Assembly (NCBI RefSeq): GCF_003334335.1
Contig: NZ_QOWQ01000001.1
DNA: 64,000 bases
Source of the DNA: Escherichia coli
GTDB lineage: Bacteria; Pseudomonadota; Gammaproteobacteria; Enterobacterales; Enterobacteriaceae
Reading direction: 5' to 3' (one strand)
Shown: one piece after another, positions 1-33,000 of the stretch
How positions within the stretch are numbered: the first letter of the stretch is position 1
Layout of the letters: each line of letters starts with the position of its first letter
Program-made: the position numbers

Positions 1-3000
1 GCGTATCCACGTTGTAGGGAAAGGCCAGGCTGCGAATCCGGTGGCCTGCCATCACTGCAACAATGCCCCTTGCGTTACGGCTTGTCCGGTTAATGCTCTG
101 ACTTTCCAGTCCGATAGCGTACAACTGGACGAGCAAAAATGTATTGGTTGTAAAAGATGCGCAATCGCTTGCCCCTTTGGCGTCGTTGAGATGGTCGATA
201 CGATTGCGCAGAAATGCGACCTTTGTAACCAGCGCAGTTCCGGCACGCAAGCCTGTATTGAAGTTTGCCCAACACAGGCGTTACGACTGATGGACGATAA
301 AGGGTTGCAGCAGATAAAGGTGGCCCGCCAGCGCAAAACGGCAGCAGGAAAAGCGTCATCAGACGCTCAGCCATCTCGCAGTGCAGCGTTGCTCCCCGTT
401 AACTCGCGTAAAGGCGCAGATAAAATTTCAGCGAGTGAACGGAAAACCCACTTTGGCGAAATATATTGCGGGCTGGATCCACAACAAGCGACTTATGAGA
501 GTGACCGCTGTGTTTATTGTGCCGAAAAAGCTAACTGCAACTGGCATTGCCCGCTGCATAACGCTATTCCGGATTACATCCGTCTGGTACAGGAAGGAAA
601 GATTATTGAAGCGGCAGAACTTTGCCACCAGACCAGTTCCTTACCAGAAATTTGCGGCAGGGTATGTCCACAGGACCGTCTTTGTGAAGGCGCATGTACT
701 TTGAAAGATCACTCGGGCGCAGTCTCTATCGGTAATCTGGAACGCTACATCACCGATACCGCGCTGGCGATGGGCTGGCGTCCCGATGTCAGCAAAGTTG
801 TTCCCCGTAGCGAAAAAGTGGCGGTGATTGGCGCTGGGCCTGCAGGGTTAGGGTGTGCTGATATTCTGGCGCGCGCAGGAGTTCAGGTCGATGTCTTTGA
901 TCGCCATCCAGAAATTGGCGGTATGCTGACTTTTGGCATTCCTCCTTTCAAACTCGATAAAACGGTATTAAGCCAGCGGCGAGAGATATTCACCGCAATG
1001 GGAATCGACTTTCATCTTAACTGTGAAATTGGCCGCGATATTACCTTTAGCGATTTAACTTCTGAATATGATGCAGTTTTCATCGGCGTGGGGACTTACG
1101 GGATGATGCGAGCAGATCTGCCGCATGAAGATGCGCCCGGTGTCATTCAGGCTCTACCGTTCCTGACTGCCCATACCCGCCAGCTCATGGGATTGCCGGA
1201 GTCTGAAGAGTATCCGCTGACGGACGTGGAAGGTAAGCGAGTCGTGGTATTGGGCGGTGGCGATACGACAATGGATTGTTTGCGGACTTCCATCCGCCTC
1301 AATGCCGCCAGCGTGACCTGCGCGTATCGTCGTGATGAAGTCAGTATGCCGGGCTCGCGCAAAGAGGTGGTTAATGCGCGCGAGGAAGGTGTCGAGTTTC
1401 AGTTCAATGTTCAACCGCAATATATCGCTTGTGACGAAGATGGGCGTTTAACTGCGGTGGGCCTGATTCGTACCGCCATGGGTGAGCCGGGGCCGGATGG
1501 TCGCCGTCGTCCTCGTCCGGTAGCGGGTTCAGAGTTTGAATTGCCCGCCGATGTTCTGATTATGGCCTTTGGTTTCCAGGCGCATGCCATGCCGTGGTTG
1601 CAGGGCAGCGGAATTAAACTCGATAAATGGGGCCTGATTCAAACCGGTGACGTCGGGTATTTACCTACCCAGACGCATCTGAAAAAAGTCTTTGCTGGTG
1701 GTGATGCAGTTCATGGCGCGGATCTGGTTGTCACTGCAATGGCCGCAGGAAGGCAGGCGGCGCGCGATATGTTAACTCTGTTTGATACGAAGGCATCGTG
1801 ATGAAATCGTTAATTATCGTTAATCCGGCTGACTGTATTGGCTGCCGTACTTGTGAAGTAGCCTGTGTGGTCGCTCACCCTTCAGAACAGGAGTTGAATG
1901 CCGATGTCTTTTTACCCCGGCTGAAGGTACAGCGACTGGACAGCATCAGTGCGCCGGTGATGTGCCATCAGTGTGAAAACGCCCCTTGTGTTGGCGCTTG
2001 CCCCGTGGGGGCGCTGACGATGGGCGAGCAGGTGGTGCAGACCAATTCTGCCCGTTGTATTGGCTGTCAGAGTTGCGTCAGTGCGTGCCCGTTTGGAATG
2101 ATCACCATTCAGTCGTTGCCGGGGGATACCCGACAACAAATTGTGAAATGCGATCTCTGTGAACAGCGGGAAGAGGGGCCAGCCTGCGTTGAATCTTGCC
2201 CAACACAGGCGCTGCAGTTGCTTACTGAAAGAGAACTCAGGCGAGTCCGCCAGCAGCGTATTGTTGCCAGCGGTGAGAATCCTCTCTGAAAGAAATCTCC
2301 GCGCTGAAAGGCGCGGAGAATCTATTAGATTGCCCAACCACCCGCGTAAAATGCGACCAGTGCGGCAGTAATGATCACCGTACCAATATTCAGCTTTTGC
2401 CATTCGCGTGCAAAGACGCGGCCTACGACCAGTGTCACAAAGCCCAGCATAATACCGGTAACGATATTACAAGTCAGAACGATGAACACGGCACACACCA
2501 GGCCAGCCATAGCGTCAATAAAATCATTGAAATCCAGCTTCGAGACGTTACTTAACATCAGCAAACCTACGTACATCAGAGCGGGTGCAGTGGCGTAACC
2601 AGGGATCAAAAATGACAGCGGTGATAAAAACAGAATTAACAGGAATAACGCCCCCACTACGGTTGCGGTTAAACCTGTTTTACCCCCGGCGGCGGTTCCT
2701 GCCGCTGATTCGATATAAACCGCTGCGGGCGCTGCGCCCACCAGGCCGGAGAATATTGAACTTACTGAGTCACTGGTCAGGGCTTTGCCGCCGTTGATGA
2801 TCTGGTTGTCTTTATCCAACAAATTCGCCTGACCGGCGACGGCACGGATGGTGCCAGTAGCGTCGAACACTGCGGTCATCACCAATGCCAGTACACTCGG
2901 AAGTACAGTTGGCTGGAGTGCACCCATAATATCGAGGCTGAAAATCAGAGACTTACCATCTTCGCCAGTCAGGCTTGGCATCGCCACCAGACCGTGGTAT

Positions 3001-30000: not shown

Positions 30001-33000
30001 CGTCGACATCGTGCTTTGTTTCAGTAAATTGCCACCGTTATGGATTGGTGCAGCGTCTTCTGCCAGCGCCGCTTCTGGCGTGGTGATAACGGGTAATTCT
30101 TGCCACTCAATGCTGACCAATTGCGCCGCTTTTTCTGCCGTGAGTTCATCGCGGGCCACGACGATGGCAACGGCGTCACCATGATGACGAACATGGCGAG
30201 TTAGCAGTGCGCGATCGGCGGTATCGCGCTTGTTTTCGTCAAGTGTCCAGGCATGCCCAGCTGTAGCGAATGGAATATCAGGCACATCTTCCCAGGTAAA
30301 AATCGCCAGTACGCCCGGCAAACTTCTGGCTTGTTCATCATTAATACTTACGGCATAACCATGTGCGATAGGGCTACGTACATATTTCGCATAACACATG
30401 CCCGCCATAACATAATCGTCAGTATATCGTGCCCGCCCGGTGACCTTAGCAATGGCATCGACGCGCATGCATGATTCACCCGTAGCGGTTGCTTCCCGCG
30501 CTTCCATAGAAATCCCCTCGATTTGAACATTTGGTTCTTATGGCAAAGATTTAGTCTAAGCAGGCAAGATTTACGCCAGAAACGACGATAAGCGTTAGGG
30601 GAGGTAGGAAGTGTGATGACGTTAAAAAAACACAGATATGATACGAAACAGGACTCTGAATAGGGGCAGTGATACGTATCAATATGAGTGGCGATAAAAT
30701 CAATGTGATAAATTGGGATTATTACGCATCAGGATGGGAAATAGGGTAAAAAGTCAGGAAGTTCGATACCTCTACAGCGAATATTTTGCTGATGATACTT
30801 CCCTTTGCCAAATGAAATTAACCTCTTTCTCTATTACCACGTTTTTCCAGAAGCAAGAGATTGGGTATCAAGAGGCTGGCTGCTATGATAAGGCGTCTTG
30901 TTTTTTAAGCGAGGAAAGATTTTGAGTGCGGGACGCCTGAATAAAAAATCTCTGGGTATCGTGATGTTGTTATCGGTTGGACTGCTTTTGGCGGGCTGTT
31001 CGGGTAGCAAATCATCCGATACAGGAACGTATTCCGGCTCCGTTTACACCGTGAAACGGGGGGATACGCTATATCGTATTTCGCGCACCACGGGAACCAG
31101 CGTAAAAGAACTGGCGCGACTGAACGGCATTTCCCCCCCTTACACCATTGAAGTTGGTCAGAAACTAAAACTGGGTGGGGCGAAAAGTAGCAGTATTACA
31201 CGTAAATCAACCGCCAAATCAACGACCAAAACCGCATCGGTTACACCGTCATCAGCGGTACCGAAATCATCCTGGCCGCCAGTAGGGCAACGTTGTTGGT
31301 TATGGCCAACGACAGGGAAAGTTATCATGCCGTATTCGACAGCAGATGGCGGCAATAAAGGGATTGATATCTCAGCTCCACGGGGTACACCTATTTACGC
31401 CGCGGGTGCAGGAAAGGTGGTGTATGTGGGCAACCAGCTGCGTGGCTACGGTAATCTCATCATGATTAAACACAGTGAAGATTACATTACGGCTTACGCC
31501 CATAATGACACGATGCTGGTAAATAATGGGCAAAGCGTGAAGGCTGGGCAAAAAATCGCCACTATGGGGAGCACGGATGCGGCATCTGTTCGCCTGCATT
31601 TCCAGATTCGTTACCGTGCAACGGCAATTGATCCGCTACGTTACTTGCCGCCTCAGGGCAGCAAGCCAAAATGCTGATGGCGAATTAATCAGCAGTCAGC
31701 AGCGTGGCACTTGCTAAGGAGAGCGTAAGGTTTATAATGCCTTACGCATCTCGAAGCGGGCGTAGTTCAATGGTAGAACGAGAGCTTCCCAAGCTCTATA
31801 CGAGGGTTCGATTCCCTTCGCCCGCTCCAATTTATCTTCGCCGTAATACTTCCCCATTTTGTTGTAAATAAAAAGCGTTTACGCAATGCAATCCTTTTGT
31901 AACAACCCAGGTAAAACACCTTATTTTCAAGTTGTTAAATAAGTGGTTATCTACGCTTTTAACAAACGATTGATGGAATATTTTATGAAAGGGAAATCTG
32001 CATTAACTCTTCTGCTCGCTGGTATATTTTCGTGCGGCACATGCCAGGCGACAGGGGCAGAAGTGACGAGTGAATCTGTATTTAACATTCTTAATTCCAC
32101 GGGGGCAGCAACAGATAAAAGTTATTTATCGTTAAATCCAGATAAGTATCCTAATTATCGTCTTCTGATTCACTCAGCCAAATTACAAAATGAAATAAAG
32201 AGCCACTATACCAAAGACGAAATTCAAGGATTGCTAACATTAACAGAAAACACACGAAAGTTAACGTTGACGGAGAAACCCTGGGGAACGTTTATTCTTG
32301 CTTCTACTTTCGAAGATGACAAAACAGCGGCAGAAACCCACTATGATGCTGTCTGGTTGAGGGATAGTTTATGGGGCTATATGGCATTAGTATCAGATCA
32401 GGGAAATAGTGTAGCCGCAAAAAAGGTTCTGCTCACCCTGTGGGATTATATGTCTACGCCCGACCAGATTAAGCGGATGCAGGACGTCATTAGCAACCCA
32501 AAACGACTGGATGGAATTCCCGTGCAAATGAATGCTGTGCATATCCGATTTGACAGCAACTCCCCCGTGATGGCAGATGTGCAGGAAGAAGGCAAGCCGC
32601 AGCTGTGGAACCATAAACAAAATGATGCTTTAGGTCTTTACCTTGATCTCCTTATACAAGCAATCAACACTGGTACTATTAACGCTGAAGATTGGCAAAA
32701 AGGTGACCGATTAAAGTCGGTTGCGCTGCTGATTGCTTATCTGGATAAAGCCAATTTCTATGTTATGGAAGATTCCTGAGCATGGGAAGAAGATGCCCGA
32801 TTAAACACATCTTCCGTTGCACTGGTGACCTCTGGACTGGAACGTTTGTCAAACCTACTCTCGAAGAAAGACTCTGTTTTTGTCTCTGATTTACTACGCG
32901 AAGCTAAAGTCAATGAACTGGATGAAACTCTTTCAACAACGAGGTTGAACCACCTCATAGATAAAGGTTATGAAAGAATAACGTTACAGCTTGATTTAGG

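What the first reader, a model, noticed from the sequence alone, without database searches (positions are those of the whole stretch)
2..30468. A 30-kb supercluster combining purine transport and deamination, two xanthine-dehydrogenase-type hydroxylases, molybdenum-cofactor maturation genes and a carbamoyl-handling operon
Within 30 kb lie ghxQ, guaD, xanQ, xdhABC, xdhD-ygfM, ssnA, ygfK, mocA (cofactor cytidylylation), yqeB and yqeC (XdhC-like and P-loop proteins associated with selenium-dependent molybdenum hydroxylases) and the operon ygeW-ygeX-ygeY-hyuA-yqeA, all next to a sigma-54 activator. The gene content is consistent with an anaerobic route from purines or urate to ammonia, CO2 and carbamoyl phosphate/ATP. 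Several enzymes have no assigned substrate as far as I know, so the exact chemistry is partly open.
Basis: partly seen in the sequence, partly recalled or inferred. Interest (0 to 1): 0.5.

Follow-up and report, generated by a model that had tools for sequence, protein, structure and literature searches.

The report
E. coli anaerobic urate-degradation gene cluster

Summary
All 16 core proteins tested score above the curated NCBIfam cut-offs of their families.

The region was described as a 23-gene purine-catabolism and selenium-dependent molybdenum hydroxylase locus in 2008. It was shown to be the urate-inducible anaerobic uricolysis cluster in 2022-23. It was reconstituted enzyme by enzyme in 2025: urate, 2,8-dioxopurine (XdhD-YgfM), ureidomethylhydantoin (YgfK+SsnA), 2,3-diureidopropionate (HyuA), carbamoyl phosphate and ATP (YgeW, YqeA), diaminopropionate (YgeY), pyruvate and NH3 (YgeX). 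The sigma-54 sites at xdhA, ygeW, ygfK and ygfT, and a YgeV co-expression module, are also published.

My small addition concerns the TTATCA-N3-TGATAA enhancer box published for the clostridial regulator DioR. It sits 125-310 bp upstream of all four E. coli sigma-54 promoters, and beside YgeV homologues in Enterobacter, Sedimentibacter, Clostridium and Propionigenium. This predicts the YgeV operator. YgeV is a GAF-PAS-AAA+-HTH protein with no receiver domain.

The transport/deaminase operon and the cofactor genes lack these sites. The region is therefore a functional neighbourhood, not one regulon. Novelty: already known.

The parts
1..1801 (+). ygfT (5' end lies outside the window): Fe-S/GltD-like oxidoreductase, 'formate-dependent uric acid utilization protein'
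   Evidence: RefSeq annotation. NF009451, 1406.7 bits against a cut-off of 1154. Urate-induced. Its sigma-54 site and YgeV-type box lie left of the window (L081 5821-5837 and 5642-5656).
1801..2289 (+). ygfS: HydN-like 4Fe-4S dicluster protein, presumed electron-transfer partner of YgfT
   Evidence: matches the N-terminal parts of AegA/YgfT and HydN, all below the cut-offs. Its role is inferred.
2296..2319 (-). terminator-like hairpin after ghxQ, convergent with the end of ygfS
2325..3692 (-). ghxQ: guanine/hypoxanthine transporter
   Evidence: RefSeq annotation. No NCBIfam hit at 1e-20.
3728..5044 (-). guaD: guanine deaminase (guanine to xanthine)
   Evidence: TIGR02967, 633.6 bits against a cut-off of 375.
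5062..6462 (-). xanQ: xanthine/proton symporter; first gene of the xanQ-guaD-ghxQ unit (gaps of 17 and 35 bp)
   Evidence: No sigma-54 site or YgeV box in its 164-bp upstream gap.
6602..6617 (-). GC-rich hairpin with T-tract just after xdhD; separates the ygfK operon from xanQ
   Evidence: sequence.
6627..9497 (-). xdhD: Mo/Fe-S subunit of urate reductase (2,8-dioxopurine dehydrogenase); Glu606 is present
   Evidence: TIGR03313, 2122.8 bits against a cut-off of 1101.9. E606. Activity urate + NADH to 2,8-dioxopurine shown for the E. coli enzyme.
9494..10273 (-). ygfM: FAD subunit of XdhD; 4-bp overlap with xdhD
   Evidence: TIGR03312. Overlap. Co-purifies with XdhD.
10324..11652 (-). ssnA: amidohydrolase that opens the pyrimidine ring of reduced 2,8-dioxopurine
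   Evidence: TIGR03314, 737.9 bits. Coupled YgfK+SsnA assay.
11655..14753 (-). ygfK: Fe-S flavoenzyme, 2,8-dioxopurine reductase (still annotated 'putative selenate reductase subunit')
   Evidence: TIGR03315, 1778.7 bits. Ferredoxin-type Cys motif at residue 938. Biochemistry and ygfK deletion phenotype.
14826..14842 (-). sigma-54 promoter of ygfK-ssnA-ygfM-xdhD: GTGGTGCGATTGTTGCT
   Evidence: Seen. Identical to the ChIP-seq site OS31 of Bonocora 2015.
15010..15024 (.). exact YgeV/DioR-type palindrome TTATCATTATGATAA, about 185 bp upstream of the ygfK sigma-54 promoter
   Evidence: 0 mismatches. Top hit in the window of a matrix trained only on non-enterobacterial sites. Binding is inferred.
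15075..15653 (-). mocA: molybdenum cofactor cytidylyltransferase
   Evidence: TIGR03310, 214.2 bits against a cut-off of 186.
15756..16526 (+). yqeC: accessory protein of selenium-dependent molybdenum hydroxylases; Walker-A-like GAGGKTS
   Evidence: TIGR03172, 240.9 bits against a cut-off of 73. Motif.
16574..18199 (+). yqeB: XdhC-like N-terminal half plus TIGR03309 accessory domain of selenium-dependent molybdenum hydroxylases
   Evidence: Haft & Self 2008.
18209..18415 (.). REP-type repeat cluster bracketed by two direct copies of the hairpin GGCCGGATGGTATTACCCACCCGGCC; likely terminators for yqeB and yqeA
18420..19352 (-). yqeA (arcC): carbamate kinase; carbamoyl phosphate + ADP to ATP
   Evidence: TIGR00746, 385.6 bits against a cut-off of 358. 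ATP formation with YgeW.
19400..20785 (-). hyuA: hydantoinase; opens ureidomethylhydantoin to 2,3-diureidopropionate
   Evidence: TIGR02033, 675.5 bits. Assay.
20838..22049 (-). ygeY: M20 hydrolase that removes the last ureido group to give 2,3-diaminopropionate
   Evidence: TIGR03526, 721.6 bits. Assay. A hairpin with T-tract at 20801-20820 separates it from hyuA.
22107..23303 (-). ygeX (dpaL): diaminopropionate ammonia-lyase; gives pyruvate + 2 NH3
   Evidence: TIGR03528, 651.1 bits..
23361..24548 (-). ygeW: knotted carbamoyltransferase; phosphorolysis of one ureido group of 2,3-diureidopropionate to carbamoyl phosphate
   Evidence: NF005538, 825.2 bits.. A hairpin at 23333-23354 follows it.
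24642..24658 (-). sigma-54 promoter of ygeW: CTGGCACACTTATTGTT, with an unusual -12 TTGT
   Evidence: ChIP-seq site OS30. RpoN gSELEX peak. Conserved in Enterobacter sp. Bisph1.
24698..24718 (-). CRP-like box TTTGTGATCAACCCCACACAT between the enhancer boxes and the promoter
   Evidence: Conserved in Enterobacter. Li et al. replaced 'the native Crp-binding site' of this intergenic region and thereby relieved glucose repression.
24829..24969 (.). three degenerate YgeV/DioR-type boxes (24829-24843, 24858-24872 and a third inside 24952-24969), 180-310 bp upstream of the ygeW promoter
   Evidence: All three blocks are conserved against Enterobacter, where the middle one is an exact TTATCAAAATGATAA.
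25027..26805 (+). ygeV (also named isrR): GAF-PAS-AAA+-HTH_8 sigma-54 activator; Walker A GESGTGK at 300, GAFTGA at 347; no receiver domain
26815..26838 (.). bidirectional terminator-like hairpin between ygeV and xdhC
26845..27324 (-). xdhC: Fe-S subunit of xanthine dehydrogenase; intact in the window
   Evidence: NF007387, 341.9 bits, profile positions 1-159 of 159..
27321..28199 (-). xdhB: FAD subunit; 4-bp overlap with xdhC
   Evidence: NF007427, 534.2 bits..
28210..30507 (-). xdhA: Mo subunit of xanthine dehydrogenase (hypoxanthine/xanthine to urate)
   Evidence: NF007426, 1486.4 bits. The xdhA deletion mutant does not consume xanthine.
30563..30579 (-). sigma-54 promoter of xdhABC: CTGGCGTAAATCTTGCC
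   Evidence: ChIP-seq site OS29.
30697..30711 (.). YgeV/DioR-type box (TTATCACATTGATTT on the - strand), about 125 bp upstream of the xdhA promoter
   Evidence: fourth-best hit in the window.

Best explanation
The region is the E. coli purine-catabolism locus, built from several transcription units that together feed and run the oxygen-independent 2,8-dioxopurine (reductive urate) pathway.

Feeder steps:
- GhxQ and XanQ import guanine, hypoxanthine and xanthine. UacT, just left of the window, imports urate.
- GuaD deaminates guanine to xanthine.
- XdhABC oxidises hypoxanthine and xanthine to urate.

Core pathway:
- XdhD-YgfM removes the C6 oxygen of urate with NADH, giving 2,8-dioxopurine.
- YgfK reduces the pyrimidine ring and SsnA hydrolyses it, giving ureidomethylhydantoin.
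- HyuA opens the hydantoin to 2,3-diureidopropionate.
- YgeW phosphorolyses one ureido group to carbamoyl phosphate, and YqeA converts that to ATP, CO2 and NH3.
- YgeY removes the other ureido group.
- YgeX turns 2,3-diaminopropionate into pyruvate and NH3.

Cofactor genes: MocA makes the cytidine form of the molybdenum cofactor. YqeB and YqeC are the accessory proteins of the selenium-dependent molybdenum hydroxylase trait.

These steps are shown in the literature with the E. coli proteins. The exception is selenium dependence, which was shown in Clostridium sporogenes.

Regulation (partly shown, partly my inference): four sigma-54 promoters (xdhA, ygeW, ygfK, ygfT) are activated by YgeV, a one-component GAF-PAS activator. 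I infer that YgeV binds TTATCA-N3-TGATAA boxes 125-310 bp upstream of each promoter. A CRP-like site at ygeW would impose glucose repression. The transport/deaminase operon and the cofactor genes sit in the same neighbourhood but outside this regulon.
For: Gene content and family membership.

Pathway steps shown with E. coli enzymes and mutants: 10.1101/2025.05.19.654654, 10.1101/2025.04.24.650524, 10.1101/2022.07.24.501321 (mutants lose conversion of labelled urate to acetate; ygfK and ygfT are urate-induced).

Selenium dependence, and co-occurrence of YqeB, YqeC and SelD with the cluster.

Sigma-54 binding at xdhA, ygeW, ygfK and ygfT: ChIP-seq sequences are identical to what I read in the window. 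An RpoN gSELEX peak lies between ygeV and ygeW.

Co-expression: the YgeV iModulon holds xdhABC, ygeWXY, hyuA, ygfK, ssnA, ygfM, xdhD, ygfT and uacT. ygfT expression is reported reduced in a ygeV mutant.

YgeV has Walker A, GAFTGA and HTH_8, a GAF-PAS sensor and no receiver domain.

Operator inference:
- Published DioR sites in Clostridiales are TTATCA-N3-TGATAA.
- In 1.29 Mb of 79 loci that carry sigma-54 activator genes, all 9 exact boxes fall in the 4 loci where a full-length YgeV homologue adjoins uricolysis genes. Expected numbers are 0.001-0.01 per locus.
- In the window there are 16 matches with up to 2 mismatches against 4.1 expected; 0 of 100 shuffles reach 16.
- With a matrix trained only on Firmicutes and Fusobacteria sites, 3 of the top 4 hits in 64 kb fall in the three sigma-54 promoter regions. 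The ygfT-uacT spacer has a further strong hit.
- The boxes, the CRP-like box and the promoter are the conserved blocks in the E. coli/Enterobacter alignment.

Operon structure: 4-bp overlaps and short gaps; hairpins at unit ends.
Against: - Nothing in the sequence contradicts the pathway. My part of the evidence is sequence only, and the biochemistry is taken from papers, two of which I read as preprints.
- The two 2025 papers disagree on which ureido group YgeW removes. Li et al. report 2-amino-3-ureidopropionate (albizziin) as the product. Liu et al. describe 3-amino-2-ureidopropanoate.
- Selenium dependence has not been shown for E. coli XdhD itself.
- The roles of YgfT, YgfS and AegA are unresolved: purified XdhD-YgfM and YgfK work with NAD(P)H, yet formate and ygfT matter in vivo.
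- YgeV binding to the boxes is untested. The E. coli boxes at ygeW and xdhA each have 2 mismatches.
- The ygeW promoter has a non-consensus -12 element and a weak ChIP signal.
- One YgeV-linked locus (Ruthenibacterium, L006) lacks the canonical box.
- A different role, indole signalling and LEE activation, has been published for YgeV.
Confidence: 0.9

Rival explanations
1. The ygfK-ssnA-ygfM-xdhD unit is primarily a selenate reductase. The clustering with selenium-linked genes would then reflect selenium oxyanion metabolism, not purine catabolism.
For: The current RefSeq and NCBIfam names still read 'putative selenate reductase subunit YgfK' and 'Se_sel_red_Mo/FAD'. Haft & Self cite Bebien 2002 for selenate reduction by this region.
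Against: Purified XdhD-YgfM reduces urate to 2,8-dioxopurine. YgfK+SsnA convert 2,8-dioxopurine to ureidomethylhydantoin. The ygfK and xdhD deletion mutants block exactly these steps. The genes are urate-induced and co-occur with hydantoinase, carbamoyltransferase and diaminopropionate lyase across phyla. The selenium link is explained by a selenium-dependent molybdenum cofactor. Selenate reduction could be a side activity.
Confidence: 0.04
2. The 30 kb is not one functional system. It is a chance juxtaposition of independent units: purine salvage transport and deamination, xanthine dehydrogenase, cofactor maturation, and a carbamoyl operon.
For: There are at least seven transcription units on both strands with terminator-like hairpins between them. 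xanQ-guaD-ghxQ, mocA and yqeCB have no sigma-54 site or YgeV box and are not in the YgeV iModulon list I could read.
Against: The products form one continuous metabolic chain from purine import to pyruvate. Four of the units share sigma-54 promoters, the same box and one co-expression module. The same gene families cluster in Firmicutes, Fusobacteria, Enterococcus and Haloarcula. Partial phylogenetic profiling placed 10 of the 11 top YqeB-correlated E. coli genes in this region. The fair reading is 'functional neighbourhood with one core regulon', which the main explanation already includes.
Confidence: 0.05
3. YgeV is chiefly an indole-signalling virulence regulator (IsrR) acting on the LEE island, and its position in the purine cluster is incidental.
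For: ygeV is among the genes most induced by indole in EHEC. The isrR mutant of Citrobacter rodentium is attenuated and shows lower LEE expression (PMC9426417).
Against: That paper leaves direct LEE binding open, and it calls YgeV an orphan response regulator although it has no receiver domain. YgeV homologues sit beside uricolysis genes, with the same operator, in non-pathogens from three phyla. Four sigma-54 promoters with boxes surround it in E. coli. ygfT expression is reported to depend on it. The virulence effects could be indirect consequences of purine or urate metabolism in the gut.
Confidence: 0.1

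Closest known systems
The 2,8-dioxopurine / reductive uric acid degradation gene cluster (Liu, Dodd et al. 2022-2025; Li, Wei, Zhang et al. 2025; Kasahara, Rey et al. 2023 as cited in those papers)
   Same: It is the same locus. The E. coli enzymes used for reconstitution are encoded by these genes, and gene order and families are identical.
   Different: Nothing of substance. 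The window adds the flanking feeder genes (xanQ-guaD-ghxQ, xdhABC) and ygfTS, which the papers treat as neighbours.
The selenium-dependent molybdenum hydroxylase locus, a '23-gene purine catabolism and selenate reduction region' of E. coli (Haft & Self 2008, PMC2276186)
   Same: The same genes, b2866-b2882, were listed there as one conserved neighbourhood, with YqeB, YqeC and YgfJ (MocA) as accessory proteins.
   Different: In 2008 the substrates were unknown and XdhD/YgfK were called selenate reductase.
The DioR sigma-54 regulon of Clostridiales (Nie et al. 2019, PMC6615313)
   Same: Same regulator architecture, same target genes (dpaL, pyrC/hyuA, ygeW-ygfK-ssnA-ygeY, yqeB, yqeC, xdh) and the same TTATCA-N3-TGATAA enhancer box with -24/-12 promoters.
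   Different: It was described only for Clostridiales, with function 'Unknown'. The E. coli, Enterobacter and Propionigenium sites are my extension. The E. coli boxes are more degenerate, and a CRP-like site is added at ygeW.
The reductive pyrimidine (Pyd) pathway: PydA dihydropyrimidine dehydrogenase, PydB dihydropyrimidinase, PydC ureidopropionase
   Same: Same logic: reduce the ring, open it with an amidohydrolase, then remove ureido groups. According to Li et al., YgfK resembles PydA in domain layout, SsnA is related to PydB, and HyuA is a hydantoinase. My own scan places HyuA in the dihydropyrimidinase family TIGR02033.
   Different: The substrate is a purine that must first be dehydroxylated by a molybdenum enzyme. 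Two rings are opened, and one ureido group is conserved as carbamoyl phosphate.
The arginine deiminase pathway (ornithine carbamoyltransferase + carbamate kinase)
   Same: YgeW and YqeA gain ATP by phosphorolysis of a ureido group followed by carbamate kinase.
   Different: YgeW is a knotted carbamoyltransferase acting on 2,3-diureidopropionate, not citrulline.

Membership tests
2,8-dioxopurine (reductive urate) pathway cluster | XdhD-type molybdenum hydroxylase (TIGR03313), here with the FAD subunit YgfM | tested here: met
   2122.8 bits against a cut-off of 1101.9; YgfM 489.7 against 241.5. Glu606, noted by Li et al., is present.
2,8-dioxopurine (reductive urate) pathway cluster | YgfK-type reductase adjacent to the SsnA amidohydrolase | tested here: met
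   TIGR03315 1778.7 bits and TIGR03314 737.9 bits. The genes are 2 bp apart.
2,8-dioxopurine (reductive urate) pathway cluster | HyuA hydantoinase, YgeY M20 hydrolase, YgeX diaminopropionate ammonia-lyase | tested here: met
   TIGR02033, TIGR03526 and TIGR03528, all above their cut-offs.
2,8-dioxopurine (reductive urate) pathway cluster | YgeW carbamoyltransferase with carbamate kinase (the ATP-yielding variant) | tested here: met
   NF005538 825.2 bits; TIGR00746 385.6 bits.
2,8-dioxopurine (reductive urate) pathway cluster | The enzymes actually convert urate to pyruvate through 2,8-dioxopurine | not testable with these tools
   Taken from published reconstitution with the E. coli proteins.
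Selenium-dependent molybdenum hydroxylase system | YqeB (TIGR03309) and YqeC (TIGR03172) accessory genes next to molybdenum hydroxylase genes | tested here: met
   417 bits against 220, and 240.9 against 73.
Selenium-dependent molybdenum hydroxylase system | selD (selenophosphate synthase) in the same genome | not testable with these tools
   selD (b1764 in Haft & Self) lies outside the window.
Selenium-dependent molybdenum hydroxylase system | Enzyme activity depends on a labile selenium cofactor | not testable with these tools
   Shown for the C. sporogenes enzyme purified from a selD mutant. Not shown for E. coli XdhD or XdhABC.
Bacterial sigma-54 enhancer-binding protein regulon (YgeV/DioR type) | AAA+ domain with Walker A and the GAFTGA loop, plus a C-terminal HTH | tested here: met
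   PF00158 at 2.1e-70; HTH_8 at 3e-13. GESGTGK at 300 and GAFTGA at 347.
Bacterial sigma-54 enhancer-binding protein regulon (YgeV/DioR type) | -24 GG / -12 GC promoters before the target operons | tested here: met
   Found in sequence at ygfK, ygeW (-12 GT) and xdhA. They are identical to published ChIP-seq sites.
Bacterial sigma-54 enhancer-binding protein regulon (YgeV/DioR type) | Upstream activator sites bound by the regulator | tested here: inconclusive
   TTATCA-N3-TGATAA boxes are found upstream of all four promoters, are statistically enriched and are conserved across phyla. Binding itself is untested.
Two-component response regulator (as YgeV/IsrR has been labelled) | N-terminal receiver (REC) domain with a phospho-acceptor Asp | tested here: not met
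   No Response_reg hit in Pfam. The N-terminus models and matches as GAF + PAS; the best two-domain match is DhaR(N).

The most novel reading that the evidence does not exclude
YgeV is a one-component sensor of a purine-like heterocycle: urate or 2,8-dioxopurine, possibly with cross-talk from indole. It acts through a GAF-PAS module whose GAF domain carries a conserved Cys-x2-Cys-x5-Cys-x-Glu motif, which could be a metal or redox site. It drives four sigma-54 promoters through TTATCA-N3-TGATAA boxes. This regulator-operator pair has travelled with the pathway across Proteobacteria, Firmicutes and Fusobacteria. The published virulence phenotype of 'IsrR' would then be a downstream effect of gut urate metabolism. 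None of this is excluded by my data, but only the operator prediction is well supported.
Probability: 0.3. Interest if true: 0.35.

Novelty: already known. Interest (0 to 1): 0.1.

Why it matters
The pathway matters: gut bacteria use it to remove about a third of human urate, and engineered E. coli Nissle that over-expresses this cluster lowers urate in uricase-deficient mice. That importance is already recognised and published, so the finding adds nothing new.

What remains open, and is sharpened a little here, is regulation. The predicted YgeV operator boxes give concrete targets for footprinting and for rational de-repression of the native cluster. Showing that YgeV has a GAF-PAS sensor and no receiver domain reframes the 'IsrR orphan response regulator' story. 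Other open points are:
- the role of YgfT and YgfS in formate-linked electron supply;
- the selenium dependence of the E. coli enzymes;
- the position at which YgeW cleaves 2,3-diureidopropionate.

Tried and rejected
- Rfam scan of the whole window: no riboswitch or sRNA inside the cluster. Only tRNA-Gly and OmrA/OmrB were found elsewhere.
- A selenocysteine or pseudogene reading of xdhC, prompted by the 'internal stop' flag in ML35: rejected. The window ORF is intact and matches the family profile end to end; the stop is a strain SNP. My first translation was out of frame and is void.
- Sigma-54 sites or YgeV boxes upstream of xanQ, mocA or yqeC: none found. A box-like palindrome inside yqeC (16400-16414) has no promoter nearby and scores low, so I did not count it.
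Only 11 loci had full-length homologues, and 5 of those adjoin uricolysis genes. It therefore gives examples, not a census.
- The six full-length YgeV-like loci without uricolysis genes have no exact boxes, so I treated them as paralogues.
- Horizontal-transfer signal: the cluster has GC 0.49-0.53, ordinary for E. coli, unlike the neighbouring ETT2 island at 0.32-0.36. There is no compositional evidence of recent acquisition.
- Sigma-70 promoter scans were at or below shuffle expectation and I did not use them.
- Iwadate & Kato 2019, the primary paper on ygeV, ygfT and aegA, is not in the searchable library. I cite it only through papers that quote it.
- The structure model of the YgeV sensor (mean pLDDT 76) supports the GAF + PAS folds. 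Whole-model TM-scores are low because the domain orientation differs, so I draw no ligand inference from it.

Full report
**What is there**

The window is Escherichia coli chromosome. Its first 25 kb are 100% identical to several complete genomes. 5142 of 5426 complete E. coli genomes carry at least 80% of that stretch in one place.

Two genes lie inside the stated range but were not named: ygfT (cut by the window edge) and ygfS.

An independent hmmscan against NCBIfam puts XdhD, YgfM, SsnA, YgfK, MocA, YqeC, YqeB, YqeA, HyuA, YgeY, YgeX, YgeW, XdhA/B/C, YgfT, GuaD and XanQ above the curated cut-offs of their families.

Boundaries need small corrections. The stated end (30468) falls 13 codons inside xdhA and misses its promoter. 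The cluster also continues past the left edge, to the ygfT promoter and the divergent urate permease gene uacT.

xdhC, flagged 'internal stop' in strain ML35, is intact in the window. The stop is a single SNP at position 27239.

**Organisation**

Gene spacing and hairpins suggest these units.
- xanQ-guaD-ghxQ: gaps of 17 and 35 bp, with a hairpin after ghxQ.
- ygfK-ssnA-ygfM-xdhD: 2 bp gap, 50 bp gap and a 4-bp overlap, with a hairpin and T-tract after xdhD.
- mocA alone, and yqeC-yqeB divergent from it.
- ygeW-ygeX-ygeY-hyuA-yqeA: gaps of 47-57 bp. Terminator-like hairpins lie after ygeW and after ygeY, so read-through may be partial.
- ygeV alone.
- xdhA-xdhB-xdhC: 10 bp gap and a 4-bp overlap.
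- ygfT-ygfS.

The GC content of the cluster (0.49-0.53) is ordinary for E. coli, unlike the adjacent ETT2 island. Rfam finds no RNA element inside the cluster.

**What it does: already published**

Haft and Self (2008, PMC2276186) listed these same genes (b2866-b2882) as 'a 23-gene purine catabolism and selenate reduction region'. They proposed YqeB, YqeC and YgfJ (MocA) as accessory proteins of selenium-dependent molybdenum hydroxylases.

Liu et al. (bioRxiv 10.1101/2022.07.24.501321) identified the urate-inducible cluster in gut anaerobes. They showed that E. coli MG1655 converts labelled urate to acetate anaerobically, and that deletions of ygeW, ygeX, ygeY, hyuA, ygfK or ssnA abolish this. 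They also found ygfK and ygfT strongly induced by urate.

In 2025 two groups reconstituted the chemistry. With E. coli proteins, Li et al. (10.1101/2025.05.19.654654) showed each step.
- XdhD-YgfM reduces urate with NADH to 2,8-dioxopurine.
- YgfK plus SsnA give ureidomethylhydantoin.
- HyuA opens it.
- YgeW with phosphate removes one ureido group.
- YgeY and YgeX finish to pyruvate.
- The xdhA, xdhD and ygfK deletion phenotypes match these steps.

Liu et al. (10.1101/2025.04.24.650524) showed that E. coli YgeW plus YqeA make ATP from 2,3-diureidopropionate. They also showed that the clostridial urate reductase needs selenophosphate synthase.

Three things were missing or dated:
- the reductive first step through 2,8-dioxopurine;
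- pyruvate as the carbon product;
- the fact that substrates are now assigned.

**Regulation: what is known**

ChIP-seq (Bonocora 2015, PMC4591121) mapped four sigma-54 sites.
- xdhA: CTGGCGTAAATCTTGCC
- ygeW: CTGGCACACTTATTGTT
- ygfK: GTGGTGCGATTGTTGCT
- ygfT: TATGCCCGTTTATTGCA

I find the first three at 30563-30579, 24642-24658 and 14826-14842 on the minus strand. The fourth lies just left of the window. An RpoN gSELEX peak lies between ygeV and ygeW.

A 'YgeV iModulon' groups xdhABC, ygeWXY, hyuA, ygfK, ssnA, ygfM, xdhD, ygfT and uacT. ygfT expression is reported lower in a ygeV mutant. Li et al. relieved glucose repression by replacing the 'native Crp-binding site' between ygeV and ygeW.

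For Clostridiales, Nie et al. (2019, PMC6615313) reconstructed a sigma-54 regulon, 'DioR', over the same gene families. They gave its function as 'Unknown'. The listed enhancer sites include ATTTATCAAAGTGATAAGT and ATTTATCATAATGATAAGG.

**Regulation: what I add**

A scan of one genome per species with YgeV returned mostly generic sigma-54 activators. Eleven loci had full-length homologues. Five of these adjoin uricolysis genes: Enterobacter sp. Bisph1, Sedimentibacter hydroxybenzoicus, a Ruthenibacterium MAG, Clostridium thailandense and Propionigenium maris.

Four of the five carry a consensus or near-consensus -24/-12 promoter, preceded by one to three exact TTATCA-N3-TGATAA palindromes. Across all 79 fetched loci (1.29 Mb) there are nine exact boxes. 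All nine lie in those four loci, against expectations of 0.001-0.01 per locus.

In the E. coli window the pattern with up to two mismatches occurs 16 times, against 4.1 expected; none of 100 shuffles reaches 16. An exact copy lies at 15010-15024, upstream of ygfK. Two-mismatch copies lie at 24829-24843 and 24858-24872 (upstream of ygeW) and at 30697-30711 (upstream of xdhA).

A matrix trained only on the Firmicutes and Fusobacteria sites ranks three of its top four window hits in the three sigma-54 promoter regions. It also finds TTCTCATATTGATAT in the ygfT-uacT spacer, the same 15-mer as at ygeW.

In an alignment of the ygeV-ygeW spacer with that of Enterobacter, the conserved blocks are:
- three boxes;
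- a CRP-like TTTGTGATCAACCCCACACAT at 24698-24718;
- the promoter, including its unusual -12 TTGT.

I infer that YgeV is the orthologue of DioR, and that these boxes, 125-310 bp upstream of each promoter, are its operator. Binding is untested.

xanQ-guaD-ghxQ, mocA and yqeCB have neither sigma-54 sites nor boxes. The 30 kb is therefore a functional neighbourhood with one core regulon, not a single co-regulated supercluster.

**The regulator itself**

YgeV has Walker A (GESGTGK, residue 300), the GAFTGA loop (347), an AAA+ lid and a Fis-type HTH.

Its first 265 residues match PAS domains and, more weakly, GAF domains by sequence profile. A structure model (mean pLDDT 76) shows two alpha/beta sensor domains, and the best two-domain match is the GAF-PAS module of DhaR. 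There is no receiver domain.

A paper that renamed YgeV 'IsrR' calls it an orphan response regulator (PMC9426417). That paper reports ygeV as induced by indole and needed for full LEE expression. In domain terms the label does not fit.

The GAF domain carries C84-x2-C87-x5-C93-x-E95, kept in 10 of 12 full-length homologues. Its meaning is unknown.

**Open points in the known story**

- The two 2025 papers disagree on which ureido group YgeW removes: the product is albizziin in one and 3-amino-2-ureidopropanoate in the other.
- Selenium dependence has not been shown for the E. coli enzymes.
- The roles of YgfT, YgfS and AegA in formate-dependent urate use are unresolved, given that the purified reductases accept NAD(P)H.
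- The signal sensed by YgeV is unknown.

**Verdict**

Interest is low. The only new element here is a sequence-based prediction of the E. coli YgeV operator, which extends a published clostridial regulon to enterobacteria and fusobacteria.

Noticed in passing
window 18209-18415: The convergent yqeB/yqeA gap holds two direct copies of the 26-nt hairpin GGCCGGATGGTATTACCCACCCGGCC (18209-18234 and 18390-18415). They bracket two REP-like palindromes, probably a BIME-type repeat cluster that serves as terminators for both genes.
   Followed up: partly
window 24642-24658: The ygeW sigma-54 promoter has TTGT instead of the canonical TTGC at -12. The same deviation is conserved in Enterobacter sp. Bisph1, and the published ChIP signal at this site is weak.
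   Followed up: partly
window 23333-23354 and 20801-20820 (- strand): GC-rich hairpins with T-rich tails sit between ygeW and ygeX and between ygeY and hyuA. The five-gene 'operon' may therefore be attenuated or split into ygeW / ygeXY / hyuA-yqeA.
   Followed up: no
window 25027-26805 (YgeV residues 84-95): A Cys-x2-Cys-x5-Cys-x-Glu motif in the GAF domain of YgeV is conserved in 10 of 12 full-length homologues. It may be a metal, Fe-S or redox site.
   Followed up: partly
window 16400-16414: The palindrome TTCTCAATGTGAGAA lies inside yqeC, 160 bp before yqeB. It resembles the variant box TTCTCATTTCGAGAA seen next to the Ruthenibacterium YgeV homologue (L006), but no sigma-54 site is nearby.
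   Followed up: no
window 31756-31829 and 31985 to about 50150: tRNA-Gly is followed by the ETT2 type III secretion island. The island has GC 0.32-0.36 and many frameshifted or truncated genes, and includes ygeH, ygeG and yqeHIJK. Strain ML35 has an IS5-family transposase gene and about 8.4 kb less sequence there than the window.
   Followed up: partly
window 61302-61383 and 61498-61585: The tandem sRNA genes of the OmrA-B family lie between galR and aas (Rfam, 86 and 97 bits).
   Followed up: no
window 27239: Strain ML35 differs from the window by only 3 SNPs in 38 kb. One of them turns Ser29 of XdhC into a stop, so that strain probably lacks functional xanthine dehydrogenase.
   Followed up: yes
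window 49278-49292: TTATCATGATGATTG, inside the AT-rich ETT2 island near yqeH/yqeI, scores as the second-best YgeV-box hit in the window. Given the AT-rich context it is probably a chance match.
   Followed up: no
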